From the NCBI GenBank assembly GCA_020632445.1, contig JACKFN010000002.1, positions 36,387-100,386 of the forward strand: a stretch of DNA of 64,000 nt. Reading direction: 5' to 3'. Below are positions 1,404-53,109 of the stretch, in pieces. Under the pieces are notes generated by a model. The model did not search any database and was not told the DNA's origin. It worked only from the letters and a program-made list of their open reading frames with translations. Source of the stretch: Candidatus Nomurabacteria bacterium. Lineage in GTDB: Bacteria > Patescibacteriota > Patescibacteriia > Magasanikbacterales > UBA922. The position numbers and the translations under genes were made by a program. The stretch's first letter is position 1. Every line of letters starts with the position of its first letter.

Positions 1404-1826
1404 TCACTCACTCGTGACTCCATCAAAATGTTCTTCTTCGTCATCAGCCTTGGTTGCATGTACCACTCCATCCTTGTGTTCAGGTGGAGAGTACACAGAG
1501 TATAGCTTGAGTTCTTGATTGCCTATGTTAATAACGTTATGCTTAGTACCTGCGGGAATAACAATAGCATAATCGTCTTCCACCGTATGCTCTACACCAT
1601 CGAGAATGACGAGCGCACGGCCCTGTTCAATCCGGATGAATTGATCCAGATGATGTATTTCAAGGCCAATTTGATCTCCGGGCTGCAAATTCATCAAAAC
1701 CAGTTGGCTATTTTTAGCTGTATAGAGCACGCGCTGATAGTCCGTGTTGGTGAGTGTCTCCTTTTCTATATTGGTAATATATCCCTTCATAGCTTTACAG
1801 TTATTCATTTCATAGTACCACTTCAC
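1404..1826 (-). CDS. cupin-domain protein
   Basis: 140 aa with two-His/Glu cupin-like beta-barrel motif region (LEIHHLDQFIRIEQG...VIPAGTKH). Confidence 0.5.
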   Translation of the reverse strand: MKWYYEMNNCKAMKGYITNIEKETLTNTDYQRVLYTAKNSQLVLMNLQPGDQIGLEIHHLDQFIRIEQGRALVILDGVEHTVEDDYAIVIPAGTKHNVINIGNQELKLYSVYSPPEHKDGVVHATKADDEEEHFDGVTSE

Positions 1827-1835: not shown

Positions 1836-2585
1836 TCAAAAAAAGAACAACTTTGCGGCAGAAATCAAAATAAGCACCAAAAAAAATACCTTCACCACAG
1901 CATTCCCTTTTTTTACAGCAATATGTGCGCCAACATAACTTCCGACAATACTGGCAAGGAAAAAGGCAATTCCAATAGAATAATCTACAAGCCCACTCAG
2001 TGCATAGGAAAAAAAGGCTGATATATTCAAAAAAAGAAGCGGGAACCTCCTGGTTGCATTTGCCTGAATCAAGGTATATCCAAAAAAGCTCACCAAAGTA
2101 TAACTGACCAAAAGTCCCACTCCACCAAAGCCTGCTTGCACGACCGCGATTATAAAATAGGCAACAAACCCAAGATTATTCGTGCTACGAGACTTTAAAT
2201 GCGGTATATGTTCTAGACCCCATTTTGGCCTGACAAGTACAAGTGGTAAAAGCAAAAGTATCAACACTCCAAAAATTTTGGAAGCCAAATCGCTATCGAC
2301 ATGTATGAGCAACCTTGACCCCAAAAATGCAGCTACCAAACTCAAAATAACAAAAGTAGGGATATGCTTCCAGACGATTCTCTTTTCTTTGTGAAACTTA
2401 TACACTCCCGAAATACCTCCAAAACTCGCCATTTTACCACTTGCGATGGCTATGCGTGGGTCAATTCCCAAAAAAATCACCACGGGGGTATAGATAAGTG
2501 CTGCCCCTCCCCCGGATATTTGCCCAATGATAAAAGCACAGAGGGAAACAAAAAAAACAACAACTTCTATCGGGATATGAGACAT
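1836..2585 (-). CDS. TauE/SafE-family anion (sulfite) exporter
   Basis: 249 aa, ~8 TM helices, Gly-rich motifs typical of TauE/SafE (DUF81). Confidence 0.65.
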   Translation of the reverse strand: MSHIPIEVVVFFVSLCAFIIGQISGGGAALIYTPVVIFLGIDPRIAIASGKMASFGGISGVYKFHKEKRIVWKHIPTFVILSLVAAFLGSRLLIHVDSDLASKIFGVLILLLLPLVLVRPKWGLEHIPHLKSRSTNNLGFVAYFIIAVVQAGFGGVGLLVSYTLVSFFGYTLIQANATRRFPLLFLNISAFFSYALSGLVDYSIGIAFFLASIVGSYVGAHIAVKKGNAVVKVFFLVLILISAAKLFFF

Positions 2586-3090
2586 ATGGATACTTACTTT
2601 TTGAGTGGCCGCCCTAACTCAGACACATAACCACGACACAGTAACATAATCGCCACAAAAACAGCACGAGCAATGTAAATGGTCGACAAGTATGTCAGCA
2701 TGAGCACATTATACGGTAGCAAACCAAAGATGGCAAAATTCATCAAATAAATGCAAAATGTGCATTTTTGAGTATATCTGGACCAATTTCAACGTAAACT
2801 CTACTGAACATCTATTAATAAGACACATTGCAAAGCGATATCCGCCCCATTTCCATCTTCACCACTTACCCGCAAAAAAGCCTCTTTTAACCTTTGGTGT
2901 TATCATTTTCTCCTCTGATCGAGCCAAGGTTGTGCTTCTGTACCTTCGCGTACCTCTTTTGTCTTATCTTCAGAAAGTAGGTATGCTACGCGAGAGATAC
3001 CAAAAGAAAGATTAGAATTCTCACTGACACCGACTAGGTATTATGATCCTTTCCTTTCAATATGTATAACGATAGCATAACAAAAAAAAC

Positions 3091-3669
3091 TCATTTCACC
3101 CTATAAATGTAAAAGTAAGACTGGATCTTTCCTTTGCATCGAAGAGGGAGTATCTCACTTGGCTCTACTGCATCAATTTTGTGACCAAGCAATATCATAA
3201 CGGTTCCTGATTTACATTCTTCCTGCATTTTCTTCCAAAGTTGCTCGACCACTACAGGAACAAGGAAAACATAACAAACGTCCATTTTACTTAAGTCTTC
3301 CTCTAGAAAATCTTTTCTCAAAAATCGAACTTTTGACTTGATTGCATACGCTTTCAACTTGGATGCGTAGATATGAACTGGCGAAAGTTCATATGCATAG
3401 ACCTCTTTCACCCCAATGTGTTCTGCGGCAAATGCCATATGCCCCCACCCACTTCCAAGTTCTGCAAAAATAGTATTTTGATCCAACAACTTCGAACCGA
3501 ATTCATTTTTAAAAGTTTGTACATATTGCTTTGGTGTGATGACCATCGGAACTCTTGTTCGTATATAGAGCAAAAGATAATACAATAGAAAAAATACACC
3601 CAGTACGATGCCTACAAGAATATATTTACTCTCGAGAAACTCTCCCATGGGTGATATATTGCAAAGCAA
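3091..3669 (-). CDS. class I SAM-dependent methyltransferase with N-terminal TM anchor
   Basis: Motif-I-like ELGSGWGHMAF followed by acidic motif II region; 192 aa. Confidence 0.45.
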   Translation of the reverse strand: MLCNISPMGEFLESKYILVGIVLGVFFLLYYLLLYIRTRVPMVITPKQYVQTFKNEFGSKLLDQNTIFAELGSGWGHMAFAAEHIGVKEVYAYELSPVHIYASKLKAYAIKSKVRFLRKDFLEEDLSKMDVCYVFLVPVVVEQLWKKMQEECKSGTVMILLGHKIDAVEPSEILPLRCKGKIQSYFYIYRVK

Positions 3670-3670
3670 A

Positions 3671-5014
3671 TTAAGCCTCCGTTTTTGTATTCAAATTGTG
3701 TTGTTGAAAAAGAGCTCTCGACATATAACATACACCAAACAAAATACTTACAAGGTATACGGTATCCGAAAACTCCGGTACACCACTTACCAAGCTCGTG
3801 TAAGAAACCGTGAGGTCAAGTAACTCTGGTGTTAATGTATCATCTAAAGTTTCAAAATATGCTTTGTATTGAAAATACTGGTTATCCTCCAGGTTTGTCA
3901 ATGTCTTGCTAGGGAAACCAGTTTGTGGTGAAGTGAGCTCCGAGTAATATGTCGCACCCGTTCCGTCTGGTCCAATAAACGACTCTCCACTACAAGCATC
4001 ATCGTCACAAGAACGCACCTGATAGAGTAATCTAAGTGCGCCACGTTTATATAGAGCACTCACATCGGTAGCTGATAAAGAACCTTCCCATATCGTAAAT
4101 TCATCTATTTTCCCATCAAACCACTGAGATGCCCCAGCTCTTCCACCAACCTGTAGTGCATCATTCGCATCAAATCCCCAACCTGCTCCTGCCGTGACAG
4201 ATACGAGTGAGCCATTTACATAATTTGTTATAGCTGGAGTACTTTCGTCATACACGGAAACAAGATGGTACCATACTCCTGTTGAAAAATTTCCAAAACC
4301 TGCTTTTATTTCAGTACCATCATTAAAAAACGAAACTAGGTTACCGTTTGTTTCAAAGGCAATTCCATAACCTAACGCATGACTACTTTTATTTTTTGTG
4401 AAAACCCTCTCAGCTGACCCTTTTGAATTTATGTATATCCACAAGCTGACAGTTTTATCAGTGTTGATGCCAAGTGTAGTAATAGTCCCTGCATTTACAT
4501 AGTCACCACCACCATCAAAACTCCCTGCCCTATCTATCCTTCCACTTGCATTGGTGTCAGCATTGCCAACCCTCACTCCATGATTTTCATCTCCTGAGCC
4601 ATCTAGGACCTCGTCGGCGGTTCCATCCCATGAAGACTCATCCATATGATATGAAACCAATATTCCAGAAGCATCTATATTGCCATTTGCATAAACACTT
4701 TCAGTTGCGCCATTGTCTGGTACATTCTTAAAGTATGGGAAATTAGGTGTCCAACTCAAACCACTCCAAGCAGCACTACCACCTGCATCAATCACTCTGG
4801 AAGTAAAATTTCCAGAACCATTTGTCATTCCTGTGGAATCAAGCTGTACTTGATTACTTACACATTCGGTATCAGAATTGCTCCCCGAACCAAATTCACC
4901 AACATCACAGCTAGTGTCAGAGACAGTGCTTGCATATACTAAAATGGGATATCCAATAAGTAGCAAAATAGCAAATACAGCAGCTAATTTTCGCAATGAC
5001 TCGAAAAATATCAT
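3671..5014 (-). CDS. secreted concanavalin A-like/LamG-domain protein
   Basis: N-terminal signal/TM, Gly/Ser/Thr/Asp-rich 447 aa with LamG-like jelly-roll signatures; typical CPR surface protein. Confidence 0.45.
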   Translation of the reverse strand: MIFFESLRKLAAVFAILLLIGYPILVYASTVSDTSCDVGEFGSGSNSDTECVSNQVQLDSTGMTNGSGNFTSRVIDAGGSAAWSGLSWTPNFPYFKNVPDNGATESVYANGNIDASGILVSYHMDESSWDGTADEVLDGSGDENHGVRVGNADTNASGRIDRAGSFDGGGDYVNAGTITTLGINTDKTVSLWIYINSKGSAERVFTKNKSSHALGYGIAFETNGNLVSFFNDGTEIKAGFGNFSTGVWYHLVSVYDESTPAITNYVNGSLVSVTAGAGWGFDANDALQVGGRAGASQWFDGKIDEFTIWEGSLSATDVSALYKRGALRLLYQVRSCDDDACSGESFIGPDGTGATYYSELTSPQTGFPSKTLTNLEDNQYFQYKAYFETLDDTLTPELLDLTVSYTSLVSGVPEFSDTVYLVSILFGVCYMSRALFQQHNLNTKTEA

Positions 5015-5162
5015 AATATTAATACAAATTATACTCCTTTCGCCTACTCATATCAAATTTTTTAACAAAAAACATATTCTATAGATATCTTCTTAACCAA
5101 ATATAGAAAATAGGGAAATTGCTAAGAATATCTATGACAGAAAGTTTAAAGACTTAAAGCAA

Positions 5163-5387
5163 ATGCAACAAGAAATTAAAATCCAACTTGAACGGCACAC
5201 AGTTGCAGACGAAAATTTCAGTTTAAGCGCAGCTCAGCTACTTTCTGTAGCTCAAAGGGCTGCAGAAATATTCGAAAGTTCTGAAATTGAAGAAAAGCGC
5301 CAATTACTGAATTTCGTATTTCAGAACTTTAAACTAAAAGAAAAAAAGCTCTTATTTGAGCTTAAAAACCCGTTTCAAGACTCGTAG
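5163..5387 (+). pseudogene. C-terminal remnant of a large serine recombinase (integrase fragment)
   Basis: 74-aa ORF ...AEIFESSEIEEKRQLLNFVFQNFKLKEKKLLFELKNPF matches the conserved C-terminal tail of large serine recombinases; no catalytic domain present; lies 24 nt from tRNA-Asn. Confidence 0.4.
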
Positions 5388-5410
5388 AGTACAAGAAACG
5401 TCCAGTATTG

Positions 5411-5482
5411 CTCCCAGACCTGGATTCGAACCAGGGACATCAGCGTTAACAGCGCTGCGTTCTACCACTGAACTATCTGGGA
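5411..5482 (-). tRNA. tRNA-Asn(GTT)
   Basis: Cloverleaf by hand: acceptor TCCCAGA/TCTGGGA, D-stem GTTC/GAAC, anticodon stem CAGCG/CGCTG, loop CTGTTAA (anticodon GTT), T-arm CCTGG-TTCGAAT-CCAGG; CCA not encoded. Confidence 0.85.
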
Positions 5483-5486
5483 ATGA

Positions 5487-5516
5487 AAAACTCCGACCAT
5501 GTCGGAGCTTGTTTTT
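5487..5516. terminator. bidirectional hairpin (CTCCGAC-catg-GTCGGAG) flanked by A/T runs
   Basis: aaaaactccgaccatgtcggagcttgtttttt. Confidence 0.5.
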
Positions 5517-5685
5517 TCTGTCAAAAACTCACACCGACTATCGGAGCGTATTATTGCGATTATTATTTGCCAATGTGTAAGTCATAGTGAGTTTACTATA
5601 CCATCGATTGGCAAATACGTCAATACCTTGACAAAAAGCCCAAATCATGATATAGTTTTCCGTCAACCATCCCAAGGAGTATCCC

Positions 5686-5922
5686 ATGCACGTCGTGCTT
5701 TTCATCGTTGTCTGCCTCATCTTCTGGGGCATCTTCCGTCTGGTACTGTGGGTTATCGGCGGAGGTCTGCGCCTGACCAACTGGGCCGTGAGGAACCAGT
5801 GGGAGCGCCTCGAGCGAAACGACCCGGCGACCGCGGACAACGTCCGCAACTTCACCGCCAAAGCCATCCTCGTCATCGTAGGCATTCTCCTCTTCCTCAC
5901 CCTCATCGACATACTCACCTAG
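5686..5922 (+). CDS. small two-TM membrane protein (high-GC, foreign)
   Basis: 78 aa, GC3 very high, AAGGAG SD 7 nt upstream, followed by terminator 5985..6010. Confidence 0.45.
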   Translation: MHVVLFIVVCLIFWGIFRLVLWVIGGGLRLTNWAVRNQWERLERNDPATADNVRNFTAKAILVIVGILLFLTLIDILT

Positions 5923-5984
5923 CTCACCTGCGCGCAGTCCCCACGCTACGCTCTCCCGCAAGATTTTCAAATTTTTACGAGAGC

Positions 5985-6010
5985 AAAAAAGAGCCGTTTG
6001 GCTCTTTTTT
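5985..6010 (+). terminator. rho-independent terminator
   Basis: aaaaaagagcc-gttt-ggctctttttt. Confidence 0.6.
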
Positions 6011-6078
6011 GATTCTCTCTTGACCAGAATAGAAAAGAAAGTTAAAATGCGGATGGATTCAACCACAGGAGACCAGTC

Positions 6079-6894
6079 ATGGTCCAGCGTAACTTTGGGA
6101 ATGCTGCAGGTGAGCTTCTCGCTCACCACATCACCACCATCGCCATGCCAGGCAGGAAGGATGTGCTGGTCGATCAGATCATGCGACTCCTCCCGCGCAT
6201 CTTCAAACGTGTCCCGCAGGACGCGAGCTGGGGGTTCGACACCCACACGCGAGGAGATCCCGATCTAGGCTTTGTCTGGAAACGGGGCACGGCGCGAAGC
6301 GGTGACACCCGGGAAGACATCAAGCTCTACTTGCACTGGAACCCTGCTCTACCGGGGCTCTTCCGGGGGCGGAGCATCACAGGACGTGACCTCGAGCTTC
6401 TGATGCAGCTGTGCGAGGAACTGTTCTACCTCACGCTCACGCAAGCGATCAGGCTGGCCCAGGACATCGATTCTCTCATACCAGGCATCAAGCTCACCAC
6501 GAAGATCCGGTCGCCCGAAGGCACACAGGCCAACGGGGCAAACGACCACGTGCTTCGCATTCTGATCTACCAGCAGGTCCATCCAGACCTCGCTGGCCAG
6601 ATCGGCCAGGAACACGATGACCGCGACGGCCTCACGCTCGCCCTGCACGAGAGCAGCCCTGGACTCGAGTACCTTTCGCCGAGCGACGGCCAGTGGCGTC
6701 CAGCTTCATCTGATCCTGGTCAAGCGCTGGTATTTCCGGGCCTGAAGATGGGAGAGCTCACGGATGGGGACCTCCCCGCGCTCAGGCACCGAGTCATGGA
6801 CTCAACCGCATCCTTGAATCCAAGGATCAAGCGCGTGAGCATCGTCATGTTCATACATCCGTACAACGGCTACTGCAGACTACGAACCCACTAA
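6079..6894 (+). CDS. 2-oxoglutarate/Fe(II)-dependent oxygenase (IPNS-like superfamily), high-GC
   Basis: H-x-D in EHDDRDGLTLALHE (HxD followed by TLxL), distal His and RxS in LPALRHRVM...RVSIVMFIHP; GC ~62%, GC3 strongly biased. Confidence 0.6.
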   Translation: MVQRNFGNAAGELLAHHITTIAMPGRKDVLVDQIMRLLPRIFKRVPQDASWGFDTHTRGDPDLGFVWKRGTARSGDTREDIKLYLHWNPALPGLFRGRSITGRDLELLMQLCEELFYLTLTQAIRLAQDIDSLIPGIKLTTKIRSPEGTQANGANDHVLRILIYQQVHPDLAGQIGQEHDDRDGLTLALHESSPGLEYLSPSDGQWRPASSDPGQALVFPGLKMGELTDGDLPALRHRVMDSTASLNPRIKRVSIVMFIHPYNGYCRLRTH

Positions 6895-6898
6895 AAAC

Positions 6899-7672
6899 CT
6901 ACCCACCTTCCCCAAAAACCCTCAAGGCCTTTGACCAATCAGCTATTTCTTTTTCGTTGTGATAGAGAGTAAACTCATATACTAACTGGTGCAACTCATG
7001 CGCTATTTTTTTATCAAAATTTCCCATATCAAAAGCAGAAAAACCTTTTTCCAAAAAGAGTTCTAGTAAAAATAGCTGTGGTTTATTGATAGCTACCACG
7101 TGTTCACCAATTTTCTTTTTCATCTCGAATTCCTTTGGGCAAATAATTCCGCCTCCCTGAAAATAGAAACCAAAGGGTTTTTCTTTTTCAAAATCCTTTA
7201 AAAGCATTTCAGTCAGAGTACATCTATCCGTCACTGGCTCAAAACCAAATAAACACATGAGCTTGAGAAAAAAAACATCCATTGAAAACATCAGTGAGGG
7301 CCTATTCTGCGAGTTTTCAAGGTGTGTTAAAAAAAGATAGGTCAGGTCAAAGATACGTTCATCCACCTGCCAAGATTGCAGCAACCTATATAAAGTATTC
7401 ATGACAAAAGCAGCAATGGCAGTCTTAAGCAAATCACTGCGAATATCTGAAAAATATTCGACGCCATATACCTTGATCAAATACTGAAATTCCTTTCCGG
7501 GCGTGGTTTCTATCCGTACGACAGAAAACGGCTCAAGTTGAGCCGTATTTTTACTGACAATTTTTTTGACACCGCGTGCAAGCAAATCAAGCCTCCCCTG
7601 CTCTCGTGTATATACCGCAATAATTTGATCGCTCTCTCGATAATCGCGGCGATGCAATACAATGGCGTGCAT
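6899..7672 (-). CDS. recO: DNA repair protein RecO
   Basis: 257 aa; N-terminal OB-fold region MHAIVLHRRDYRESDQIIAVYTREQGRL... characteristic of RecO. Confidence 0.7.
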   Translation of the reverse strand: MHAIVLHRRDYRESDQIIAVYTREQGRLDLLARGVKKIVSKNTAQLEPFSVVRIETTPGKEFQYLIKVYGVEYFSDIRSDLLKTAIAAFVMNTLYRLLQSWQVDERIFDLTYLFLTHLENSQNRPSLMFSMDVFFLKLMCLFGFEPVTDRCTLTEMLLKDFEKEKPFGFYFQGGGIICPKEFEMKKKIGEHVVAINKPQLFLLELFLEKGFSAFDMGNFDKKIAHELHQLVYEFTLYHNEKEIADWSKALRVFGEGG

Positions 7673-7674: not shown

Positions 7675-8055
7675 TTATCCCTTTTGTCCTAAATACGATT
7701 CCAAAATAATCATCGCAGACTTTTCATCGCGGCTCACATCACCCATGGTGTTATCTGCTTGCTGCGACGTGAATCTTTCATCTACGAATTCCACTTTCAC
7801 TCCGGATGTTTTTGAGAGATCCTTTCCAAACTCACGTATGGTAGCAGTATTTTTATTTTCTTCTCCATCAAGTCCGATAGGAAGTCCAACAACGACCAAA
7901 TCAATCCCTTCGCTCTTTATCATTTTATCCAATTCACTTATAACTTGAGCCTCATCATTTTTGACTACTCCGTAAGGAAGTATCAAATCGACCCCCGTTT
8001 GGCACCAAGCAAGCCCAATATTTTTACGTCCATAATCTATGGCAAGAATGTTCAT
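7675..8055 (-). CDS. ruvX: Holliday-junction resolvase-like YqgF/RuvX
   Basis: MNILAIDYGRKNIGLA...LVVVGLP motifs. Confidence 0.85.
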   Translation of the reverse strand: MNILAIDYGRKNIGLAWCQTGVDLILPYGVVKNDEAQVISELDKMIKSEGIDLVVVGLPIGLDGEENKNTATIREFGKDLSKTSGVKVEFVDERFTSQQADNTMGDVSRDEKSAMIILESYLGQKG

Positions 8056-8867
8056 ATGTTTTCACTCGGTCGTTTGGTCGCAATGACTGGTCCACTTTCT
8101 GTCACAACAACCGTATGCTCAAAATGTGCGCTCAGACTCCCATCAGCAGAAAAAATTCCCCAACCGTCCTCTCCTGTTACGACTTTGTAATCCCCCATAG
8201 TAATCATTGGCTCAATAGCAATGACCACACCAGGACGAAGCTCCCACATCTCAAGTTCTTCGTCATAATAGTTTGGAACACGTGGGTCTTCGTGTACTTC
8301 ATGCCCAACACCATGTCCCACAAGATCCCGTACAATGCCATACCCTTGTGGCTTTACATACTTTTCTATTTTCTTCCCAATATCGGCAATCTTGTTTCCC
8401 GGCTTTGCCTGCTCAATACCTAAATACATGGATTTACGTGTGACATTGAGGAGTTGCTTGATCTTTTCATCGATCTCCCCGACAGGAACCGTAATGGCCG
8501 TATCCGTAAAATATCCATTGCCATTTTTCCCTTCACCCGATTTAGCTGGCCACTGCATACCAATATCAATACTAAAAACATCCCCCTCTTTGAAGACCTT
8601 ATCCGCGGTGGCGATTCCATGAACAATTTCTTTGTTCAAACTCGCACAGATGGTAGATGGAAAGGGTGTAGCATGCTTATGTGGCTTATATCCCTTAAAT
8701 GCAGGGATTCCACCAGCCTCTTTGATCAACTTTTCTGCTTGGTCATCGATTTCCTTGGCATTTCTACCCGGTTCAACCATTTTTCCCAGTTTCTCCAAAA
8801 TCTCCCCCATAAGGGCTCCTCCTTCCAAAATCTTATCGATCTCAGATTGTTTTTTGGTATATGACAT
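8052..8867 (-). CDS. map: methionine aminopeptidase type I
   Basis: 271 aa; pita-bread fold motifs (HGIA, DIGMQW, GHGVGHEVHE). Confidence 0.9.
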   Translation of the reverse strand: MSYTKKQSEIDKILEGGALMGEILEKLGKMVEPGRNAKEIDDQAEKLIKEAGGIPAFKGYKPHKHATPFPSTICASLNKEIVHGIATADKVFKEGDVFSIDIGMQWPAKSGEGKNGNGYFTDTAITVPVGEIDEKIKQLLNVTRKSMYLGIEQAKPGNKIADIGKKIEKYVKPQGYGIVRDLVGHGVGHEVHEDPRVPNYYDEELEMWELRPGVVIAIEPMITMGDYKVVTGEDGWGIFSADGSLSAHFEHTVVVTESGPVIATKRPSENI

Positions 8868-8985
8868 GTAGTAAGTCTAAAATCTAAATTTTTTCCTTCC
8901 AAGGCCCACCCGTCCTGGTTGGAAAATGAAAAGCCAAAAATACCTGACTTTTGAGTAATATAGCATATTTATGAGAAATTTCAAG

Positions 8986-9014
8986 TAAAAAACGCCCTTA
9001 TTGGGCGTTTTTAT
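8986..9014 (-). terminator. rho-independent terminator (bidirectional shape)
   Basis: aaaaaacgccc-ttatt-gggcgttttt downstream of 9029..10927 gene. Confidence 0.6.
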
Positions 9015-9028
9015 GATTCTACAAGAAT

Positions 9029-10927
9029 CTAATTACTTTCCTTCACAAGCTCAGGCAACATCTTCAATTCTTCAGAAAAATCTTTCTCTCCGGTTCCAAG
9101 AGGATTATATCCACCAAGAATTTCTGTAAGATCATCAAAGCCATCACCGTCAGTATCAGCACTGCCTGGACTCGTCCCAAATATCATCTCATGAAACTCA
9201 TTAAGGCCATCTCCATCAACATCTGCTTCAAATTCTCCAAATCCAGCTTCACCATCAATACTCATAGAAAAATCCATACTGTCTACTACCATGACACTGG
9301 AAGGGAGGATCTTGTCTGCTTCCGGATACTCGTCCTTAGTTTCATAGTTGTACTCTGGCATTACTATAGTAAATCCTCCGGGAATAGCGCTATCACCAAA
9401 AGTAATACCGGAGTAATCACTTGTTGATTCGTCTTCAGTTTCTATGGTTGGCAAACCAACAGGACTCTTTAGCTGTACATACTTATCTCGAAATACAAGC
9501 TCATACGAAGCGCCATCATCCATACTTTTGTAGGCAAAAGCTTCCAAACGATCTTCTCCGAATATCATTGCGACATAAGGACTTAACTTTGGATCACAGA
9601 CTTCTTCAAATCCGTTGTGACTTAAACAGTTTATTCCACCATTTTGCACGACGACAAAATCCGCACTCTTCGGATAGTGACCATTGTCAACAAAATACAA
9701 TTCCAATCCAGTTTCAAGTTGCTTTACTGTCGATACCATACGACTTTCTCGTGCGCTTGCCATGGATGGCTCCATCATGACACCCATAACTTCCTGCACG
9801 ATTTGCTCAAAAGGCATTGCATCCTGAGGTTCCTCAACTTCAAATGCTTCATTAAATTTGTCTGCACCTACAAAAATTTTAACCTGAAAAGGAACGGGAG
9901 CTGCCAAAAAATCTCCCTCCCAGGTACTCCCAATTTCTACGCCGATCTCTCTAAGATATTTGGTTTGCTTATCAATTTTTAAACTTATCTCAAATACATC
10001 AGCATTTTCCTTTAGGTCTTTCAAATCACGAATGTGCATTTCATTTTCAAACGATGACCGAATCTCTGGATCTCCAGAAATTTCAGAAATCCTATTTAAA
10101 AACACCTCAAATTTTTTAGTATCTATGTCGACTGCAATATGGTAAACATTTTCGTCTTCCGACTCTTTGTAGGAAAATGTCATTGGTCGTATCTCACGGA
10201 AAGCTGCTATAACTTCTTCCGACATATCCTTTGAATCATCAAAAGCATCCTCTGTCATCTTCAAGCCACCACCGGCAAGTGCGCCCATCGATTCAATAAC
10301 AATCCACCTATTGAGATAGTTTCCTATAGTCTGAAGCACCATCTCCTGCGTGACTCCATCTGGCTTTCCAAATGATACATCTTGTAAACGAAAGTAATCT
10401 TTGTCTCCTATATTGCGATAGTCAGCCGTAAAAGCCGCAAGCTGCGAGTCGAGAGACACGGTTGTCTGCATCCTTTGCTCCGTGCCAGTGGCATTATTTC
10501 CATTTGCCGTCATAGTTATAACAGCATCAAGCTGGTCTGTCCCCCATTCTTCCTTAATGCTGGTGCCGTCTGAGGAACCGAGTGTAAGACTGAATCCTTC
10601 TCTGCTCTTTGTATCACTTTCTGTCTGCTGTGCTGCGTCAAGATCAGAGAGGTCGGCATGAAGCTCCAACCGCAGCTTCGTTTCGTAGGTTTCGATTTCT
10701 TCCATGGCAGAAATCATCTCAAGGACAACATCTTGTGGGTCCGGTGGAGTACTCGTTTTTTTTAAAGCATTTTGCACCATTCCACTCATAAAGGCATACG
10801 CTCCACCAGCGATAAGCAAAATCACGATCGCCAAACCAACGATGATGGGAGCTTGCGATGGAGTTTGCTGCATGGAAGATACGCTTGACTGCCGCGTATT
10901 TGGAATATTAGAAGGTTGCTGATCCAT
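9029..10927 (-). CDS. large membrane-anchored extracellular protein with C-terminal Ca-binding DxDGDG repeats
   Basis: 632 aa; N-terminal TM; C-terminal DVDGDGLNEF...DTDGDGFDD thrombospondin-type-3-like repeats. Confidence 0.45.
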   Translation of the reverse strand: MDQQPSNIPNTRQSSVSSMQQTPSQAPIIVGLAIVILLIAGGAYAFMSGMVQNALKKTSTPPDPQDVVLEMISAMEEIETYETKLRLELHADLSDLDAAQQTESDTKSREGFSLTLGSSDGTSIKEEWGTDQLDAVITMTANGNNATGTEQRMQTTVSLDSQLAAFTADYRNIGDKDYFRLQDVSFGKPDGVTQEMVLQTIGNYLNRWIVIESMGALAGGGLKMTEDAFDDSKDMSEEVIAAFREIRPMTFSYKESEDENVYHIAVDIDTKKFEVFLNRISEISGDPEIRSSFENEMHIRDLKDLKENADVFEISLKIDKQTKYLREIGVEIGSTWEGDFLAAPVPFQVKIFVGADKFNEAFEVEEPQDAMPFEQIVQEVMGVMMEPSMASARESRMVSTVKQLETGLELYFVDNGHYPKSADFVVVQNGGINCLSHNGFEEVCDPKLSPYVAMIFGEDRLEAFAYKSMDDGASYELVFRDKYVQLKSPVGLPTIETEDESTSDYSGITFGDSAIPGGFTIVMPEYNYETKDEYPEADKILPSSVMVVDSMDFSMSIDGEAGFGEFEADVDGDGLNEFHEMIFGTSPGSADTDGDGFDDLTEILGGYNPLGTGEKDFSEELKMLPELVKESN

Positions 10928-11019
10928 AAAAAATAGTTATGTCTGAGACAGTATAGCATGAAATAAGCACTGCGTATACAAAAAAGAGCCGGAGAACCGA
11001 CTGCTTCTTTGCTTAATTT

Positions 11020-12126
11020 TTACTTTACTGATTTTATTACAGCTCCATCATAATAGTACATCGACTCACGAATACTCCTAGTGACATTATCACCGTCTAT
11101 AGTAATGTTTCCTGTAGCTCCCGCAAAGTCTTTGACTTCTGAAAGCTGCTTGGCAGCACAAGTAGTATCACGCTTACACTTTTTAATCACTGACCCAAGC
11201 ACCTTCATGGCATCATACCCAGTAGCTGTAAACAAGATGTTTTCTGGGTCTTTGTGGTACTTTGCCTGATAAGACTTAATAAGCTCTGCGTATATTTTGT
11301 TGGAAGCTGAACCATCCCAAAAAGCAAACTTTAAGCCATCATACCTGTTAGAGGTGTTGACGCGAAAATCTTCACTGGCAAAAGTATCAATTCCAACTAT
11401 TTCCTGTAACATACCAAGCTCACGCGCCTGTTTGACGATTCGTCCTGTTTCTTCCCAACCAATGATGGCAAGAGCTTCTACGTCTTTGATCTTCAACAGA
11501 TGACTGCGAAAATCATTTTCTGTACCGGTATACGATTGCATCGTTGTCTCACCGCGGAATTTTTCTTGAAGTGCACCAGTAACAAGCTCTGTAAACGGAT
11601 CCTTCAAAACAATCACCCCAAGTTTTTCGACACTGCTTTCATTCATGTACTGTGCAATCGTGTATCCAATGGACTCGTCATAAATACCAATCGCAAAGGT
11701 GTTGTCACCGAGTCCTGCGAGTTCTTCACTGGCATCAAGTGAGTTGATCAGAATCTTTCCATCATTTTGTGCACGATCGGCAAGTGCAAGTACTCCACCG
11801 TAGGTAACCGTCAAAATATAGTCTGCATTGTCAATGGTCGTAAGCTTTGCATAAGCATTGATGGTTTGCTTTTCATCAAACTGATCGTCCTCGACAATGA
11901 ACTTGATTTCAACCTCATCACCTAGCTGCCTTCGAACTTCCTCAAGCGCGATCTGCACTCCTTCAAGGTTGGCCTCACCAATAATGGCCGAATCACCACT
12001 TTGTGGAGCAATATACCCAATAGTGACCACTTCCTTGCCATTTGATGGCTTGGCGGTCTGTGAGCTCAAGCCACATCCTGATGTCAAAGCGATGATGGCC
12101 AAAGCTGCAAAAATTCTTTTTTTCAT
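11020..12126 (-). CDS. ABC transporter substrate-binding lipoprotein (PBP type I, Liv-like)
   Basis: Lipobox LTSGCG after signal peptide; periplasmic-binding-protein type I architecture. Confidence 0.65.
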   Translation of the reverse strand: MKKRIFAALAIIALTSGCGLSSQTAKPSNGKEVVTIGYIAPQSGDSAIIGEANLEGVQIALEEVRRQLGDEVEIKFIVEDDQFDEKQTINAYAKLTTIDNADYILTVTYGGVLALADRAQNDGKILINSLDASEELAGLGDNTFAIGIYDESIGYTIAQYMNESSVEKLGVIVLKDPFTELVTGALQEKFRGETTMQSYTGTENDFRSHLLKIKDVEALAIIGWEETGRIVKQARELGMLQEIVGIDTFASEDFRVNTSNRYDGLKFAFWDGSASNKIYAELIKSYQAKYHKDPENILFTATGYDAMKVLGSVIKKCKRDTTCAAKQLSEVKDFAGATGNITIDGDNVTRSIRESMYYYDGAVIKSVK

Positions 12127-12242
12127 ATGACTTATGTTTTCCGTCTTAGACGGATAATTTATGTTGACGTCATATTATGTTAAAATTCTTATTTTTTGTC
12201 AACGGTTTTTATGCTAAATTTACACACTATTTCACTTTTTTA

Positions 12243-12271
12243 TTGACAATATGCGAAATTTGTGATATAAT
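12243..12271 (+). promoter_or_regulatory. consensus sigma70-type promoter: TTGACA-17nt-TATAAT with TG extended -10
   Basis: ttgaca atatgcgaaatttgtga tataat; ATG of TrmB gene 25 nt downstream. Confidence 0.8.
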
Positions 12272-12295
12272 TTAAAATGACAAAATAAGAAGCAT

Positions 12296-13030
12296 ATGGA
12301 CATTTATCACGAACTTCAATCCATTGGCCTGCACAAATCTGAAATACGGGTGTACCTTTTTTTGCTCGAAAATGGCCTTTCCACTCCTCCACAGGTCGCC
12401 AAAGGAACCAAAATTGCTCGCACCAACTGTTACAATATTCTCGAAAGCCTTGAAGGGAAGGGGTTAATTGAAACCCAAAAAATTGGAAAGCGCAAAGCAT
12501 ACCTTGCCAGCGATCCGGAAGCATTGCTGCAAAACCTAGAAACAAAAAAGCAAAGCCTCCAAAAAGTCCTCCCAGACCTCAAGGCGCTGCACGTGACCCA
12601 AAAGAACAAACCAAAAATCACCTTCTACGAAGGTTTTGATCAGGTGAAAAATATTTACTGGCAAACGCTTTCTGCCGAAGAAATTTTTGCTATCGGTTCT
12701 ACCAAGCATCTTGATGAGTTGCATGGCAAATTCTTTAAACAATTTCTAAGCGAACTCAAACACAAAGGAATTGTTCTTTATGATATCCTCACTCCAGAGT
12801 CTGGAAAAACGATAGCTCACAATACCAGAGAAGCCCTGAAGGGACTTTACGATGTTGATATCCTTCCCGAAAAATACAAAGAAATTTCTACCGATATTCT
12901 TATTTGGGATAACAATGTTGCACTCGTCGCTTTGGAAGAACCTATCTTTGGGACCGTACTGACCAATCCTCCGCTGGCTAGGACTTTTAAGCTGCTCGTG
13001 AAACTTTTGAAAGAGCAGTTGAAGAAATAA
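12296..13030 (+). CDS. TrmB-family (sugar-responsive) transcriptional regulator
   Basis: N-terminal wHTH LHKSEIRVYLFLLENGLSTPPQVAKGTKIARTNCYNILESLEGKGLI typical of TrmB; 244 aa. Confidence 0.75.
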   Translation: MDIYHELQSIGLHKSEIRVYLFLLENGLSTPPQVAKGTKIARTNCYNILESLEGKGLIETQKIGKRKAYLASDPEALLQNLETKKQSLQKVLPDLKALHVTQKNKPKITFYEGFDQVKNIYWQTLSAEEIFAIGSTKHLDELHGKFFKQFLSELKHKGIVLYDILTPESGKTIAHNTREALKGLYDVDILPEKYKEISTDILIWDNNVALVALEEPIFGTVLTNPPLARTFKLLVKLLKEQLKK

Positions 13031-13065
13031 AAAACACCTGATTGAATTCAGGTGTTTGTTTTTGT
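13031..13065. terminator. bidirectional terminator between convergent trmB-like and adk
   Basis: aaaaacacctga-ttgaa-ttcaggtgtttgttttt. Confidence 0.65.
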
Positions 13066-13069
13066 ATAT

Positions 13070-13732
13070 TTACAATCCAAGTTTATCTTTTACCTCTCTA
13101 TCCACCACGTCGATCTTCTCTTCTCCATTTACACTCACCAAAATTCCCTTTTGTTCGTAAAATTCCACCAGTGGTGCAAGCATGGCATTACCTTGCTTTT
13201 TGATACGTTCACGAATGGTGGCTTCATTATCGTCCTCTCTCACTTGGAGCGGCCCACCACATTTTTCACAAATGGTTTTCTTTTCATTTTCTGTGGAGTA
13301 CGGCAAAATGTCTCCACAACTTCCGCAAACTTTTCTTTTTGCCAAACGATTATAGGAAATCTCATCAGAAATCCTAAACTTGACAGCAACAATTTCGTCT
13401 GCTGAGACCCTTTGTAGCAAAAAATCTTGATAGGCCTTTGCTTGCTCGACGGTTCGAATCGCTCCATCAAGCATGACTACTTTTTTCTGTGCCAAGTTCT
13501 TTTCAATAGCGGCAAAAGCAAGCTTATAGATAAGATCATCTGATACGAGTCCTCCGTTTCGCATATCTTCGAGCTTCTTTTTGTCTTCTGGATCCCCCTG
13601 TGGATCAGCATCAAGTGCACGCAGAAGATCTCCCGTAGAAATCTGAACATATCCAAGCTCTTCGGCCAAGATACGTGCCTGTGTCCCCTTTCCGCTGCCA
13701 GGGACACCCAGTAAGATAAGAACTTTCTTCAT
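13070..13732 (-). CDS. adk: adenylate kinase (zinc-lid type)
   Basis: MKKVLILLGVPGSGKGTQ P-loop; lid CGSCGD...CEKCGG; start taken at internal Met matching Adk N-terminus. Confidence 0.9.
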   Translation of the reverse strand: MKKVLILLGVPGSGKGTQARILAEELGYVQISTGDLLRALDADPQGDPEDKKKLEDMRNGGLVSDDLIYKLAFAAIEKNLAQKKVVMLDGAIRTVEQAKAYQDFLLQRVSADEIVAVKFRISDEISYNRLAKRKVCGSCGDILPYSTENEKKTICEKCGGPLQVREDDNEATIRERIKKQGNAMLAPLVEFYEQKGILVSVNGEEKIDVVDREVKDKLGL

Positions 13733-26790: not shown

Positions 26791-26903
26791 GGATATTGCG
26801 AAGCTATTTGGGGATATTTTGTGTTCAAATTCACTTTGAATCTACGTTTATGAGCAATTTACAAAAAAAGTACATTGTTCATTTGGAATAGGTGGGTAGG
26901 ACT

Positions 26904-27830
26904 CTAGTCGTGATTGACCTGGCAGCCGCCGGTTTTGCACAGGTGAATCCCTGCGTTCACCAGATCTCGCCAAATCTCATTGAGCCAATCCTGGAGCAAT
27001 ACCTCTGGAACATTGGCGTACTGATTCCCAGGGAAACGCTCGTAAAAGGCCTCAGTCAGGTCAAACGTGTGGGTGTGGTAGGTGGCTCTCACGAGCTCAG
27101 AGGTGAACCTCCCCCACTCCTCGTGGGTGTACACGGTCCAGGTGAGGATGATCTTTGGCTTTATCTGGATGCTCGCCATGGCTGCCAAAGCCTTCTTGAA
27201 GGCACCGGCCTTGGGCGTGACCGTGTAGCGAAGCCATTCGCCCAGCCCTCGAATCTTGCCCTCCATCCTCTCGATGGCAGCATTGATCTTCTCTGGTGTC
27301 GGCCTGGTGTAGTCCGGACAGATGAACACCGCCAGTGGTGGCTTGACCTGTGAAAGCCCCTGATCAAGGCTCGCGCGAGCGCTGTCTCCATTGCCACGAT
27401 CCACGAAAATGGCAATATTGAGCGCGTCCATGACCTTGCCGAATAATGTGTCAGCAAGCTCTACCTTCATGATGACCTTAAGCCACATGCAGACGTCAGT
27501 AACCGTCTTGTTGGTCTGTGCAATGGCCGTGTACGTCGGGTGGACCACTAGGGCGATAGCGGCTTCGTCATCCGCAATGCTCACATGGTCACCAAACGAG
27601 ACCGACTTCTGGAGCAGTAGGACCTTGTTGCAGATCAACTCCACAGTGCGGCCCCACCAGTACGGGACCTTGCAGGTCCAGTCAGCGCGGCGCCCCAGTC
27701 GGTTCACCCAGACAGCGACGACCATGACGGTGAATGCCGCTGCCACCAGTGTCCCTACGACGCCAACGAGCACGGCAAGCATGACCGCAAACATCTTCCA
27801 TGGCCACAAGGCCACACGAATCAGCTTCAT
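26904..27830 (-). CDS. high-GC hypothetical membrane-anchored protein (foreign)
   Basis: ~58% GC with GC3 bias inside a 38% GC genome; N-terminal TM helix; start placed at MKLIRVALWPW. Confidence 0.5.
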   Translation of the reverse strand: MKLIRVALWPWKMFAVMLAVLVGVVGTLVAAAFTVMVVAVWVNRLGRRADWTCKVPYWWGRTVELICNKVLLLQKSVSFGDHVSIADDEAAIALVVHPTYTAIAQTNKTVTDVCMWLKVIMKVELADTLFGKVMDALNIAIFVDRGNGDSARASLDQGLSQVKPPLAVFICPDYTRPTPEKINAAIERMEGKIRGLGEWLRYTVTPKAGAFKKALAAMASIQIKPKIILTWTVYTHEEWGRFTSELVRATYHTHTFDLTEAFYERFPGNQYANVPEVLLQDWLNEIWRDLVNAGIHLCKTGGCQVNHD

Positions 27831-28021
27831 TTGAGCCCCCAAGGTGAAGAAGGTGAAGTTCGAGGTTAACATATATGAAAAAAGTTGCGTTGTCAATCTT
27901 ACTGCTTGATGTCACTATCAAAAAAAAGATCCCACTTTTGTGAGATCTTGTACTGTATATGAGGTTTTGCTTATCTTTATTAAATCCTAAATCTGTAGGA
28001 AAAAATTTTTTACTCATGACC

Positions 28022-44904: not shown

Positions 44905-45024
44905 ATTTTTGATGTTAATTACTGATTATTTGCCCTGATTATAGAGAAAAAAATGAAAAAAGTCAAGTGTTGACAGCTGTTTTTTCTCATGATAGGCTAG
45001 CGGCACTGAGCAGAGGAGGGTGCC

Positions 45025-45348
45025 ATGAAAAGCATCGTATATGGAACGTGGGTCGCGGAAGACGGCAAGTGGTCCTGCAACTGCCCCGCAGGTACCAAGC
45101 CACCCAAGGCCAAAGTACATCGACACGATGTTGATCGATGCAACGAGTGTCAGTCCAGTCGTCCCGAGAAGCAATTTGGTATCTGGCTTGACTACTACGC
45201 CTGGAAATGCGCCTGTGACTTACCGAGGGCAGACCAGGCAAGGTGGTGTCCTGACTGCGTGAGATTTAGACCAGCCCCAAATGGAACCGACGCGGAAGGA
45301 AATCCACGCCCGCCTCTTACCATGGAAGAAGCCCTTCGTCCAGTTTGA
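45025..45348 (+). CDS. high-GC Cys-rich zinc-ribbon protein 1
   Basis: 107 aa; WSCNC, CNEC, WKCAC, WCPDC pairs; AGGAGG SD 6 nt upstream; GC3-biased. Confidence 0.55.
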   Translation: MKSIVYGTWVAEDGKWSCNCPAGTKPPKAKVHRHDVDRCNECQSSRPEKQFGIWLDYYAWKCACDLPRADQARWCPDCVRFRPAPNGTDAEGNPRPPLTMEEALRPV

Positions 45349-45381
45349 CCCACACATACCCACCTCTACATTCAATATCTT

Positions 45382-45411
45382 AAAAGGACACTCCTCAGGA
45401 GTGTCCTTTTT
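45382..45411 (+). terminator. rho-independent terminator
   Basis: aaaaggacactcct-c-aggagtgtccttttt. Confidence 0.65.
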
Positions 45412-45473
45412 GTATTGACAAAACCTTTGAAATGTGTTTAGCTATTATCAGACTCACGACAGGGGACAACCAC

Positions 45474-45734: not shown

Positions 45735-45828
45735 GCATCGTAACGCTCCCCACCTTTCTCCCCCATTCACAAAACTTTTTTTACAAAGACACTCCGAGTG
45801 ATCTTTTTTTGTTTTGCCATTCTGTCCC

Positions 45829-53106: not shown

Positions 53107-53109
53107 TTC

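What the first reader, a model, noticed from the sequence alone, without database searches (positions are those of the whole stretch)
5163..6895. Serine-recombinase remnant beside tRNA-Asn, flanking a 1.25-kb high-GC cargo (membrane peptide plus 2OG-Fe(II) oxygenase)
A 74-aa ORF matches only the conserved C-terminal tail of large serine recombinases. It sits 24 nt from tRNA-Asn(GTT). On the other side of the tRNA, after a bidirectional hairpin, a ~62% GC segment begins. It encodes a two-TM peptide and a 2OG oxygenase with intact HxD...H and RxS motifs, and ends exactly at the recO stop. This is the footprint of an integrative element that targeted the tRNA and then decayed, leaving cargo.
Basis: partly seen in the sequence, partly recalled or inferred. 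Interest (0 to 1): 0.5.

Follow-up and report, generated by a model that had tools for sequence, protein, structure and literature searches.

The report
Recombinase stump and resident oxygenase genes
Next to a tRNA-Asn gene in a Nomurabacteria genome lies the broken-off last fifth of a mobile-element recombinase gene. The GC-rich oxygenase and membrane-peptide genes on the other side of the tRNA are old residents of that spot, not cargo the element left behind.

Summary
Window 5109-5387 (+) encodes only residues ~390-480 of a ~500-aa large serine recombinase (LSR). Intact relatives carry Resolvase, Recombinase and Zn-ribbon domains, and their 3' ends run into the 3' end of a tRNA gene on the opposite strand. 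So a tRNA-targeting LSR element was once at tRNA-Asn.

The GC-rich pair (peptide 5686-5922, 2OG-Fe(II) oxygenase 6079-6894) lies on the 5' side of the tRNA, the wrong side for such an element. No repeat of the tRNA exists anywhere in the 64 kb. Two related genomes have peptide + oxygenase convergent on recO without any recombinase piece. One has SecY 87% identical to the window's, the other 68%. Oxygenase divergence tracks host divergence (55%, 32%), so the pair is vertically inherited.

Two things remain unexplained:
- The pair stays GC-rich (GC3 0.73/0.85 against a host range of 0.29-0.45) in every AT-rich genome examined.
- The recombinase stump starts at the same residue (~390) as at least six independently derived solo stumps, so random decay does not account for it.

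The finding as stated is ordinary. These two side observations are moderately interesting.

The parts
5109..5387 (+). Solo C-terminal piece (about residues 390-480) of a large serine recombinase gene. The annotated ORF is 5163-5387, 74 aa. It has lost the usual ATG, and a 1-nt indel creates an early stop.
   Evidence: tblastn with the intact L016 LSR matches q390-478 at 5109-5375, 62% identity. BLASTP to the L010 LSR gives E=7e-15. No N-terminal pieces are found anywhere in the window. DNA alignment to L003 shows the indel.
5410..5482 (-). tRNA-Asn(GTT). Its 3' end faces the recombinase stump.
   Evidence: ARAGORN. Rfam RF00005, 71.7 bits.
5491..5507 (.). G+C-rich hairpin flanked by an A-run and a T-run, just upstream of the tRNA 5' end. 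It is conserved in L001 and L003.
   Evidence: Terminator scan. Alignments.
5595..5656 (.). Divergent sigma-70-like promoters. One is on the - strand at 5623-5595, pointing toward the tRNA. The other is on the + strand at 5628-5656, pointing toward the peptide gene.
   Evidence: Promoter scan, 10/12 and 11/12 matches. The -35 and -10 hexamers of the + promoter are conserved in L001.
5686..5922 (+). 78-aa small membrane protein with two hydrophobic segments. GC3 is 0.85.
   Evidence: ORF. Hydropathy, and counterparts in L001 (2 TM) and L013 (1 TM), each with an RBS. dN/dS 0.52 against L001.
5984..6011 (+). Intrinsic-terminator-like hairpin after the peptide gene.
   Evidence: Conserved in L001.
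6020..6048 (+). Sigma-70-like promoter for the oxygenase gene.
   Evidence: 10/12 matches.
6079..6894 (+). 271-aa Fe(II)/2-oxoglutarate oxygenase of the IPNS/EFE-like small-molecule class. GC3 is 0.73.
   Evidence: PF03171. Conserved H179, D181, H237, R252. AF2 model pLDDT 93.9. Foldseek best matches 3on7 and 3oox, then EFE, AdaV, T7H. dN/dS 0.21 against L001.
6899..7672 (-). recO, convergent on the oxygenase gene. It anchors the conserved synteny recO-ruvX-map.
   Evidence: Pfam RecO_N and RecO_C. Same arrangement in L001 and L013.

Best explanation
Two unrelated features meet at the tRNA-Asn gene.

**(A) Recombinase stump, on the 3' side of the tRNA.** The last ~90 codons of a large serine recombinase gene remain. 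In this clade the gene sits at the very end of an integrative element. It reads toward, and usually into, the 3' end of the tRNA gene the element has targeted. The rest of the recombinase gene is gone from the 64 kb; whether other parts of the element survive in the left flank could not be decided. The stump has lost its usual start codon and has a frameshift near its end. I infer that it is non-functional.

**(B) Gene pair, on the 5' side of the tRNA.** A small membrane protein gene and a soluble Fe(II)/2-oxoglutarate oxygenase gene each have their own host-type promoter. They form a long-resident pair that has sat against the end of recO since before these Nomurabacteria-like lineages split. 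I infer that the oxygenase is active, because its metal and 2OG ligands are intact and it is under purifying selection. It most likely oxidises a small metabolite. The substrate is unknown.

The high GC of the pair points to an old foreign origin or a special constraint on these genes. It is not the mark of a recent insertion tied to the recombinase.
For: **(A) The stump**
- It aligns to residues 390-480 or 400-485 of intact LSRs that have Resolvase, Recombinase and Zn_ribbon_recom domains.
- In 34 of 80 related metagenome loci, a complete tRNA on the opposite strand overlaps or abuts the recombinase 3' end: Asn 16, His 6, Leu 4, Gln 3, Tyr 3, Arg 1, one undetermined. The closest intact relative, L016, is at tRNA-Asn(GTT).
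- L006 shows an intermediate decay state: three fragments ending in tRNA-Leu.
- No other recombinase piece is present in the window.
- Sister locus L001 lacks the stump, and synteny breaks exactly at the tRNA 3' end.

**(B) The gene pair**
- L001 has tRNA-Asn, peptide, oxygenase (55% identical), recO, ruvX and map. L013 has peptide, oxygenase (32%), recO, ruvX, map, adk and secY. L013 and L014 share asnS on the left of the oxygenase.
- Identities follow the host: SecY 87% then 68%, MetAP 87% then 62%, RecO 72% then 38%.
- The promoter and terminator are conserved between the window and L001.
- dN/dS is 0.21 for the oxygenase. Catalytic residues are conserved. The fold is confirmed.
Against: - Only about 5.1 kb of left flank is available, so I cannot tell whether the LamG, methyltransferase and TauE genes at 1836-5014 are element cargo or host genes. 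L003 shares only a cupin gene further left.
- No displaced tRNA fragment was found to define the element's limits.
- The stump's left edge coincides with a recurrent break point, so simple decay is not an adequate account of how it formed.
- The vertical-inheritance argument rests on three syntenic genomes.
- The persistent GC3 excess is larger than a simple neutral amelioration model allows. In-place replacement by foreign alleles therefore cannot be excluded.
Confidence: 0.8

Rival explanations
1. One integrative element targeted tRNA-Asn, brought in the peptide and oxygenase genes as cargo, and then decayed. Its recombinase tail was left on one side of the tRNA and the cargo on the other.
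For: A recombinase stump and compositionally foreign genes lie within 300 nt of the same tRNA.
Against: - The cargo is on the tRNA 5' side and the recombinase on the 3' side.
- There is no att repeat.
- L001 and L013 have the gene pair at the same place without any recombinase piece, and the pair's divergence matches the host's.
- The spacers and promoters are host-like and conserved.
Confidence: 0.04
2. The stump is not a random decay product. It is a stereotyped product of a site-specific event at about codon 388-390 of the recombinase gene. One possibility is a recombinase-mediated deletion between an intragenic site and upstream pseudo-sites. Another is that it is the retained cis-acting end of an element, or the scar left at an emptied site.
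For: - About 22 of roughly 40 truncated loci, plus the window and L003, start within residues 389-393.
- Upstream sequence is unrelated from position -6 outward, while -5 to -1 reads GGAGA (G 14/20, G 17/20, A 11/20, G 19/20, A 13/20).
- At least six divergent solo-tail families share this edge. Several are as close or closer to intact recombinases than to the other solo families; clearest is the tRNA-His family L037/L040, 81-83% identical to intact L079. That implies repeated origin.
- Solo N-terminal parts are rare, at most 5 of the best 120, and their ends are scattered.
Against: - No dyad symmetry typical of serine-recombinase att sites was seen.
- Intact genes show no mosaic break at residue 390; their break is near residue 140.
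- Other truncation points also occur: 292, 331, 352, 373, 401 and others.
- 14 of the loci belong to one near-identical family, which inflates the count.
- No junction or circle reads were available.
Confidence: 0.35
3. The peptide and oxygenase genes are vertically placed but are repeatedly overwritten in situ by alleles from GC-rich donors. Alternatively, they are held GC-rich by selection on synonymous sites. Either differs from slow amelioration after one ancient transfer.
For: - GC3 excess is present in all five AT-rich genomes examined: window, L001, L011, L013, L014.
- At fourfold sites, host genes keep only 23% (window-L001) and 11% (window-L013) excess identity. Oxygenase GC4 is nevertheless 0.72-0.77 against 0.35-0.37 for host genes in the window, and 0.56 against 0.21-0.24 in L001.
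- L013 and L014 have AsnRS 70% identical but oxygenases only 32% identical.
- A homolog in a GC-rich genome (L015) shows that plausible donors exist.
Against: - The sample of fourfold sites is small (41-75) and the substitution model is crude.
- Replacement by homologous recombination would need donors with the same AT-rich flanks.
- No mechanism is known.
- Other GC-rich genes are scattered through these genomes, which fits ordinary ongoing gene transfer.
Confidence: 0.3
4. The tRNA-Asn gene itself was delivered or overwritten by the recombinase element.
For: The window tRNA-Asn is 92% identical to that of L003, which also has the stump, but only 73% identical to that of sister genome L001. 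The differences are in both strands of the acceptor stem. In intact elements the recombinase ORF overlaps up to 63 nt of the tRNA.
Against: - tRNA-Asn is generally variable among these genomes, at 59-79% identity.
- The leader upstream of the tRNA is conserved with L001, about 85% by eye over 5483-5560.
- The relatedness of the L003 host is unknown.
Confidence: 0.12

Closest known systems
Large serine recombinases (phage and ICE integrases such as phiC31 Int, Bxb1 Int, A118/LI Int, CcrB, XisF)
   Same: Intact relatives of the stump have the defining Resolvase, Recombinase and Zn-ribbon architecture followed by a coiled-coil and tail. They hit the CcrB and XisF NCBIfam models, though far below their cut-offs.
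   Different: The window keeps only about 90 C-terminal codons, with no catalytic domain. This clade targets tRNA genes, and its own 3' end overlaps the tRNA. A 2015 survey stated that serine recombinases were not known to target tRNA genes (PMC4383910).
tRNA-targeted genomic islands and tycheposons (islands regenerated at tRNA 3' ends; degenerate integrases and partial tRNAs as relics)
   Same: The position is at a tRNA 3' end. A recombinase relic is present, and synteny with a sister genome breaks exactly at the tRNA. Tycheposon islands likewise hold fragmented integrases, and a minority use large serine recombinases (bioRxiv 10.1101/2020.12.28.424599).
   Different: There is no displaced tRNA fragment, and no compositionally distinct island on the 3' side within the 5 kb available. 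The host is a CPR bacterium.
SSV1-type archaeal integrases (attP inside the int gene; integration splits int beside a tRNA)
   Same: A recombinase gene piece with a fixed internal boundary lies next to a tRNA gene.
   Different: This is a serine, not a tyrosine, recombinase. The complementary N-terminal pieces expected from a split gene are rare and their ends are scattered. The boundary is about 300 bp from the tRNA, not within the tRNA-like core. The SSV1 details come from my own knowledge and were not tested here.
Uncharacterised bacterial 2OG-Fe(II) oxygenases SO_2589 (PDB 3on7) and CC_0200 (3oox); more distantly the ethylene-forming enzyme, AdaV and thymine-7-hydroxylase
   Same: Double-stranded beta-helix fold with the HxD...H triad and RxS. 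Sequence E-values are 6.7e-9 and 1.3e-8. Foldseek E-values are 1e-14 and 2e-12, with TM about 0.66.
   Different: Identity is only about 20%. The protein belongs to its own family of about 265 aa with a conserved N-terminal motif, SWGFD...GDPDLGF. None of the close matches has a known substrate.

Membership tests
Large serine recombinase (functional gene) | N-terminal resolvase catalytic domain with the serine nucleophile (PF00239) | tested here: not met
   No match in the window by Pfam or by tblastn with the L006 fragments or the L016 LSR.
Large serine recombinase (functional gene) | Recombinase domain (PF07508) and zinc ribbon (PF13408) | tested here: not met
   Absent from the window. Present in the intact relatives L010 and L016.
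Large serine recombinase (fragment of) | Significant, collinear similarity to the C-terminal coiled-coil and tail of intact members | tested here: met
   BLASTP E=7e-15 to residues 400-485 of 531. 62% identity to q390-478 of L016.
tRNA-integrated genomic island | Recombinase gene adjacent to the regenerated tRNA 3' end | tested here: met
   The stump ends 22 nt from the tRNA-Asn 3' end and converges on it. The same geometry occurs in 34 of 80 related loci.
tRNA-integrated genomic island | Displaced tRNA 3' fragment (direct repeat) marking the far end | tested here: not met
   The longest exact repeat of the tRNA region in the 64 kb is 11 nt, with E>1. The left flank beyond 5.1 kb was not available.
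tRNA-integrated genomic island | Absent from related genomes at the same tRNA | tested here: met
   L001 has tRNA-Asn with no recombinase piece and a different left flank.
Recently acquired cargo (for 5686-6894) | Atypical base composition | tested here: met
   GC3 is 0.85 and 0.73 against a host range of 0.29-0.45.
Recently acquired cargo (for 5686-6894) | Absent from relatives; bounded by att or repeat sequences; on the element side of the tRNA | tested here: not met
   Present at the same locus in L001 and L013. No repeats. Lies on the tRNA 5' side.
2OG-Fe(II) oxygenase superfamily (PF03171) | Score above the Pfam gathering threshold; HxD...H iron triad; RxS 2OG-binding motif | tested here: met
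   35.8 bits against a cut-off of 23. H179, H237 invariant and D181, R252 at least 90% conserved in 66 sequences.
2OG-Fe(II) oxygenase superfamily (PF03171) | Double-stranded beta-helix fold | tested here: met
   AF2 pLDDT 93.9. The top 50 Foldseek PDB matches listed are all Fe/2OG oxygenases.
2OG-Fe(II) oxygenase superfamily (PF03171) | Fe(II)- and 2OG-dependent catalysis on a defined substrate | not testable with these tools
   Needs enzymology. The nearest structures are uncharacterised.

The most novel reading that the evidence does not exclude
The stump is one instance of a widespread, repeatedly generated 'solo tail'. In a clade of tRNA-targeting large serine recombinases, a site-specific event at about codon 388-390, at the tip of the coiled-coil, removes the catalytic part of the gene. 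It leaves a unit of about 300 bp next to the tRNA, starting at GGAGA-ATTACTAA. This implies a second recombination site inside the recombinase gene that is not yet described. It would act either as a self-inactivating deletion or as a retained landing pad or cis end for non-autonomous elements.

Separately, the neighbouring oxygenase and peptide genes would be held GC-rich in AT-rich CPR genomes by selection or by recurrent in-place replacement.
Probability: 0.3. Interest if true: 0.6.

Novelty: new member of a known kind. Interest (0 to 1): 0.36.

Why it matters
- **As stated, the finding is ordinary.** It is a relic of a mobile-element recombinase at a tRNA, beside an accessory oxygenase gene. 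Showing that the two are unrelated prevents a false 'island with cargo' annotation.
- **tRNA-targeting serine recombinases.** The follow-up shows a large clade of serine recombinases in CPR and other uncultured microbes (more than 4000 proteins at E<=1e-20). In 34 of the 80 loci examined they abut tRNA genes, and their own coding sequence overlaps the tRNA. A 2015 survey of tRNA-gene islands stated that serine recombinases were not known to target tRNA genes.
- **The recurrent break point.** It hints at an unrecognised site or process inside these recombinase genes. That is relevant to people mining serine integrases as genome-engineering tools.
- **The GC-rich resident genes.** A gene pair that stays GC-rich in AT-rich, reduced genomes is a small test case for how long foreign composition can persist.

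Tried and rejected
- **Family and structure searches with the 74-aa ORF** (Pfam, NCBIfam, PHROGs, PDB) found nothing. The only PDB hits were chance matches to a homeobox protein.
- **The first protein search** returned only short proteins (62-129 aa). That first suggested a stand-alone small-protein family. DNA-level searches then showed many intact ~500-aa genes with the same tail, so that idea was dropped.
- **att repeat search** with blastn-short and k-mers across the window was negative. The same search in L003, L006, L007 and L010 was also negative within +/-8 kb.
- **Genome-collection scan with RecO** gave only a 24%-identical hit and was no use for synteny. Fetching more left flank via the 74-aa protein returned only short Logan contigs.
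- **Metagenome scan with the oxygenase alignments** failed twice because no conserved stretch was available, and once found nothing.
- **Rfam search of 4900-7000** found only the tRNA. The conserved leader upstream of the tRNA is not a known RNA family.
- **SSV1-like split-gene model for the residue-390 boundary** is rejected as the main explanation. Solo N-terminal parts are rare and end at scattered positions, one of them cut by an IS200/IS605 transposase gene.
- **Model in which the tail is chromosomal and the N-part is element-borne** is not supported. N-part and tail identities correlate (r=0.93), and the mosaic break is near residue 140, not 390.
- **Dyad symmetry around the boundary** was not seen.
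- **Antisense ORFs in the GC-rich DNA** (for example 5620-6246 on the minus strand, 208 aa, called as a gene in one Logan assembly) are judged spurious by-products of high GC.
Full report
**What is there**

The window comes from a Candidatus Nomurabacteria contig. The 74-aa ORF is identical to NCBI protein H6758_01175 on a 188-kb contig. The local order is as follows:

| Coordinates | Strand | Feature |
|---|---|---|
| 3671-5014 | - | LamG-domain protein |
| 5163-5387 | + | 74-aa ORF |
| 5410-5482 | - | tRNA-Asn(GTT); its 3' end faces the ORF stop, 22 nt away |
| 5491-5507 | . | hairpin |
| 5623-5595 / 5628-5656 | - / + | divergent sigma-70-like promoters |
| 5686-5922 | + | 78-aa ORF with two hydrophobic segments |
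| 5984-6011 | + | terminator-like hairpin |
| 6020-6048 | + | promoter |
| 6079-6894 | + | 271-aa 2OG-Fe(II) oxygenase |
| 6899-7672 | - | recO (4 nt after the oxygenase stop) |
| 7675-8055 | - | ruvX |
| 8052-8867 | - | map |

The GC anomaly is real but confined to the two coding sequences. GC3 is 0.85 for the peptide and 0.73 for the oxygenase, against 0.29-0.45 for nearly all other ORFs. The spacers are host-like, at 0.39 and 0.46.

**The 74-aa ORF is a recombinase tail**

Profile libraries and the PDB gave nothing. Homology is nevertheless clear.
- The translated stretch 5115-5384 aligns to residues 400-485 of a 531-aa protein on an IMG/VR contig (L010), with E=7e-15. That protein has Resolvase, Recombinase and Zn_ribbon_recom domains, and its last ~20 codons overlap tRNA-Gln on the opposite strand.
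- A scan of JGI metagenomes found at least 400 relatives of the tail, of which 80 were fetched.
- About 27 of the 80 are intact reading frames of 493-547 aa.
- In 34 of the 80, a complete tRNA on the opposite strand overlaps or abuts the 3' end: Asn 16, His 6, Leu 4, Gln 3, Tyr 3, Arg 1, one undetermined. Some of the rest have intron-split or partial tRNAs.
- The closest intact relative, L016 (493 aa), sits at tRNA-Asn(GTT).
- L006 shows an intermediate state: Resolvase, Recombinase and tail fragments in series, ending in tRNA-Leu.

In the window, only q390-478 of the L016 protein is matched (5109-5375). No N-terminal piece exists anywhere in the 64 kb. Compared with the closest solo copy (L003, also at tRNA-Asn), the window copy has lost the usual ATG and has a 1-nt indel that truncates the end.

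So a tRNA-targeting serine-recombinase element was once here. A 2015 survey of tRNA-gene islands stated that serine recombinases were not known to target tRNA genes (PMC4383910). The tycheposon work later noted a minority of such cases.

**The GC-rich genes are not its cargo**

- *Geometry.* The recombinase abuts the tRNA 3' end. An element that regenerates that end would extend to lower coordinates, whereas the GC-rich genes lie beyond the tRNA 5' end.
- *No att repeat.* The longest exact match to the tRNA region anywhere in the window is 11 nt, with E>1.
- *Relatives have the genes in place.* The only close homolog of the oxygenase (P0077, 55%) is in L001. That locus reads tRNA-Asn, 2-TM peptide, oxygenase, recO, ruvX, map, adk, secY and ribosomal proteins. 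It has no recombinase piece, and a heavy-metal ATPase lies left of the tRNA. The more distant L013 has a 52-aa 1-TM peptide with the same RBS context, then an oxygenase, convergent on recO-ruvX-map-adk-secY. L013 and L014 share asnS on the left of the oxygenase.
- *Identities track the host.* For window-L001 and window-L013 respectively: SecY 87% and 68%, MetAP 87% and 62%, RecO 72% and 38%, oxygenase 55% and 32%.
- *Regulatory elements are conserved.* The promoter and terminator are conserved between the window and L001.

The simplest reading is vertical inheritance of a resident pair. Synteny with L001 breaks exactly at the tRNA 3' end, where the stump sits.

**What the pair is**

The oxygenase scores above the Pfam threshold. 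Among 66 family members, H179 and H237 are invariant and D181 and R252 are at least 90% conserved. It evolves under purifying selection, with dN/dS 0.21 against L001. An exhaustive HMMER search finds 399 cluster representatives at E<=1e-3, most of the listed ones 240-290 aa long. An AlphaFold model has pLDDT 93.9. Its best structural matches are the uncharacterised SO_2589 (3on7) and CC_0200 (3oox), followed by the ethylene-forming enzyme, AdaV, thymine-7-hydroxylase and plant DAO/GA2ox. These are the small-molecule IPNS-like class.

I infer an active, O2-dependent oxidation of a small metabolite, with the substrate unknown. The peptide is poorly conserved in sequence (34%, dN/dS 0.52) but conserved in position and in hydrophobic character. 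It has its own promoter and terminator, so a functional link to the oxygenase is only a possibility.

**Unexplained 1: persistent GC richness**

The oxygenase gene is GC-rich relative to its flanks in all five AT-rich genomes examined.

| Locus | Oxygenase GC3 | Flanking-gene GC3 |
|---|---|---|
| window | 0.73 | 0.29-0.45 |
| L001 | 0.64 | 0.33-0.36 |
| L011 | 0.67 | 0.28-0.49 |
| L013 | 0.57 | 0.29-0.45 |
| L014 | 0.61 | 0.23-0.47 |

A homolog in a GC-rich genome (L015) shows no contrast with its flanks.

At conserved fourfold-degenerate sites, host genes retain only 23% (window-L001) and 11% (window-L013) identity above the composition expectation. Under a simple F81-type model, each lineage should keep at most about half or a third of any ancestral compositional excess. 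Yet oxygenase GC4 is 0.72-0.77 against 0.35-0.37 for host genes in the window, and 0.56 against 0.21-0.24 in L001.

With 41-75 sites this is only suggestive. It leaves three options open: slow amelioration, selection on synonymous composition, or in-place replacement. The window has about nine other GC-rich islands, so a GC-rich accessory gene pool seems to be a general feature of this genome.

**Unexplained 2: a recurrent break point in the recombinase gene**

Of roughly 40 truncated loci among the 80, about 22 start at residues 389-393 of the L016 protein. So do the window and L003. At the DNA level, conserved sequence begins at GGAGA-ATTACTAA(C/G)GA(C/T)ATG. Positions -5 to -1 read G 14/20, G 17/20, A 11/20, G 19/20 and A 13/20, and positions from -6 outward are unrelated between loci.

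Fourteen of these loci are one near-identical family found in at least 11 different left contexts. Even so, at least six divergent families share the edge. Several are as close or closer to intact recombinases than to the other solo families; the clearest is the tRNA-His solo tails L037 and L040, which are 81-83% identical to intact L079. The truncation has therefore arisen repeatedly.

Three models were tested.
- *An SSV1-like split gene.* This is unlikely. Among the best 120 matches to the N-terminal 388 residues, only 5 lack the tail, and their ends are scattered. One is cut by an IS200/IS605 transposase gene.
- *A chromosomal tail joined to an element-borne N-part.* This is not supported. 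N-part and tail identities correlate (r=0.93), and mosaic breaks lie near residue 140.
- *An obvious att-like dyad at the boundary.* None was seen.

Many solo tails are followed by only 18-35 nt of a tRNA 3' end. This fits later integrations at the tRNA displacing 'tail + tRNA end' units. How the left edge forms is unresolved. My best guess is a site-specific deletion that removes the catalytic part of the gene.

**Verdict**

The finding as stated is a new member of known kinds and of modest interest. The tRNA-targeting serine-recombinase clade with its recurrent break point, and the persistently GC-rich resident genes, are the parts worth a further look.

Noticed in passing
L016-L095 (for example L021 2953, L045 2170, L050 2953); window 5109-5118: Truncated recombinase tails from at least six divergent families, in at least 11 different flanking contexts, all begin within a few bases of GGAGA-ATTACTAA (residue ~390). 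Solo N-terminal halves are rare.
   Followed up: partly
window 26901-27900, 45001-46700, 49941-50426, 51901-54700: Further GC-rich islands sit in the ~43% GC window. They include a 322-aa ORF with no Pfam hit (GC3 0.74), a Cys-rich 265-aa ORF, a GNAT gene, and two tandem ATP-grasp-like paralogs on the minus strand (52012-53106 and 53469-54731).
   Followed up: partly
L013 4232-5527, L014 4581-5753; window 5410-5482: Oxygenase homologs sit next to asnS (asparagine-tRNA ligase, NF003037, 529 bits) in two genomes and next to tRNA-Asn in two others. This could be a remnant of an asnS/tRNA-Asn cluster or a hint of an asparagine-related function.
   Followed up: no
window 5483-5595: A leader of about 105 nt lies between a minus-strand promoter and the tRNA-Asn 5' end. 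It has two hairpins, is highly conserved with L001 (about 85% by eye over 5483-5560), and is partly conserved in L003. A terminator-like hairpin sits directly before the tRNA. There is no Rfam match.
   Followed up: partly
window 8868-13084: About 4 kb, including a 632-aa protein (9029-10927), lies between map and adk. In L001 and L013, adk directly follows map.
   Followed up: no
L042 3292-3543 (also L021): The tRNA next to a solo tail is split by a group I intron (RF00028, 105.7 bits), so ARAGORN misses it. 5S and 23S rRNA genes follow it.
   Followed up: no
L096 10001-11625: A recombinase gene of this clade is cut at about residue 365 by an IS200/IS605-type Y1 transposase gene, and the contig ends just after.
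   Followed up: no
L016-L095, intact genes: Intact recombinases of the clade are mosaics. The catalytic domain (residues 1-140) and the DNA-binding part can differ sharply in pairwise identity, for example L025 against L035 (about 0.25 then about 0.65) and L019 against L030 (about 0.88 then about 0.5).
   Followed up: partly
window 1404-1826 and L003 1432-1818: A cupin gene 69% identical lies a few kb left of the solo tail in both loci, with unrelated genes in between. The stretch between the cupin gene and tRNA-Asn may be a variable island.
   Followed up: no
L013 2637-3167; L011 6981-8423: Other isolated GC-rich genes occur in these AT-rich genomes: a pentapeptide-repeat protein (GC3 0.69) and a 480-aa unknown protein (GC3 0.64) directly after the L011 oxygenase homolog.
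   Followed up: no
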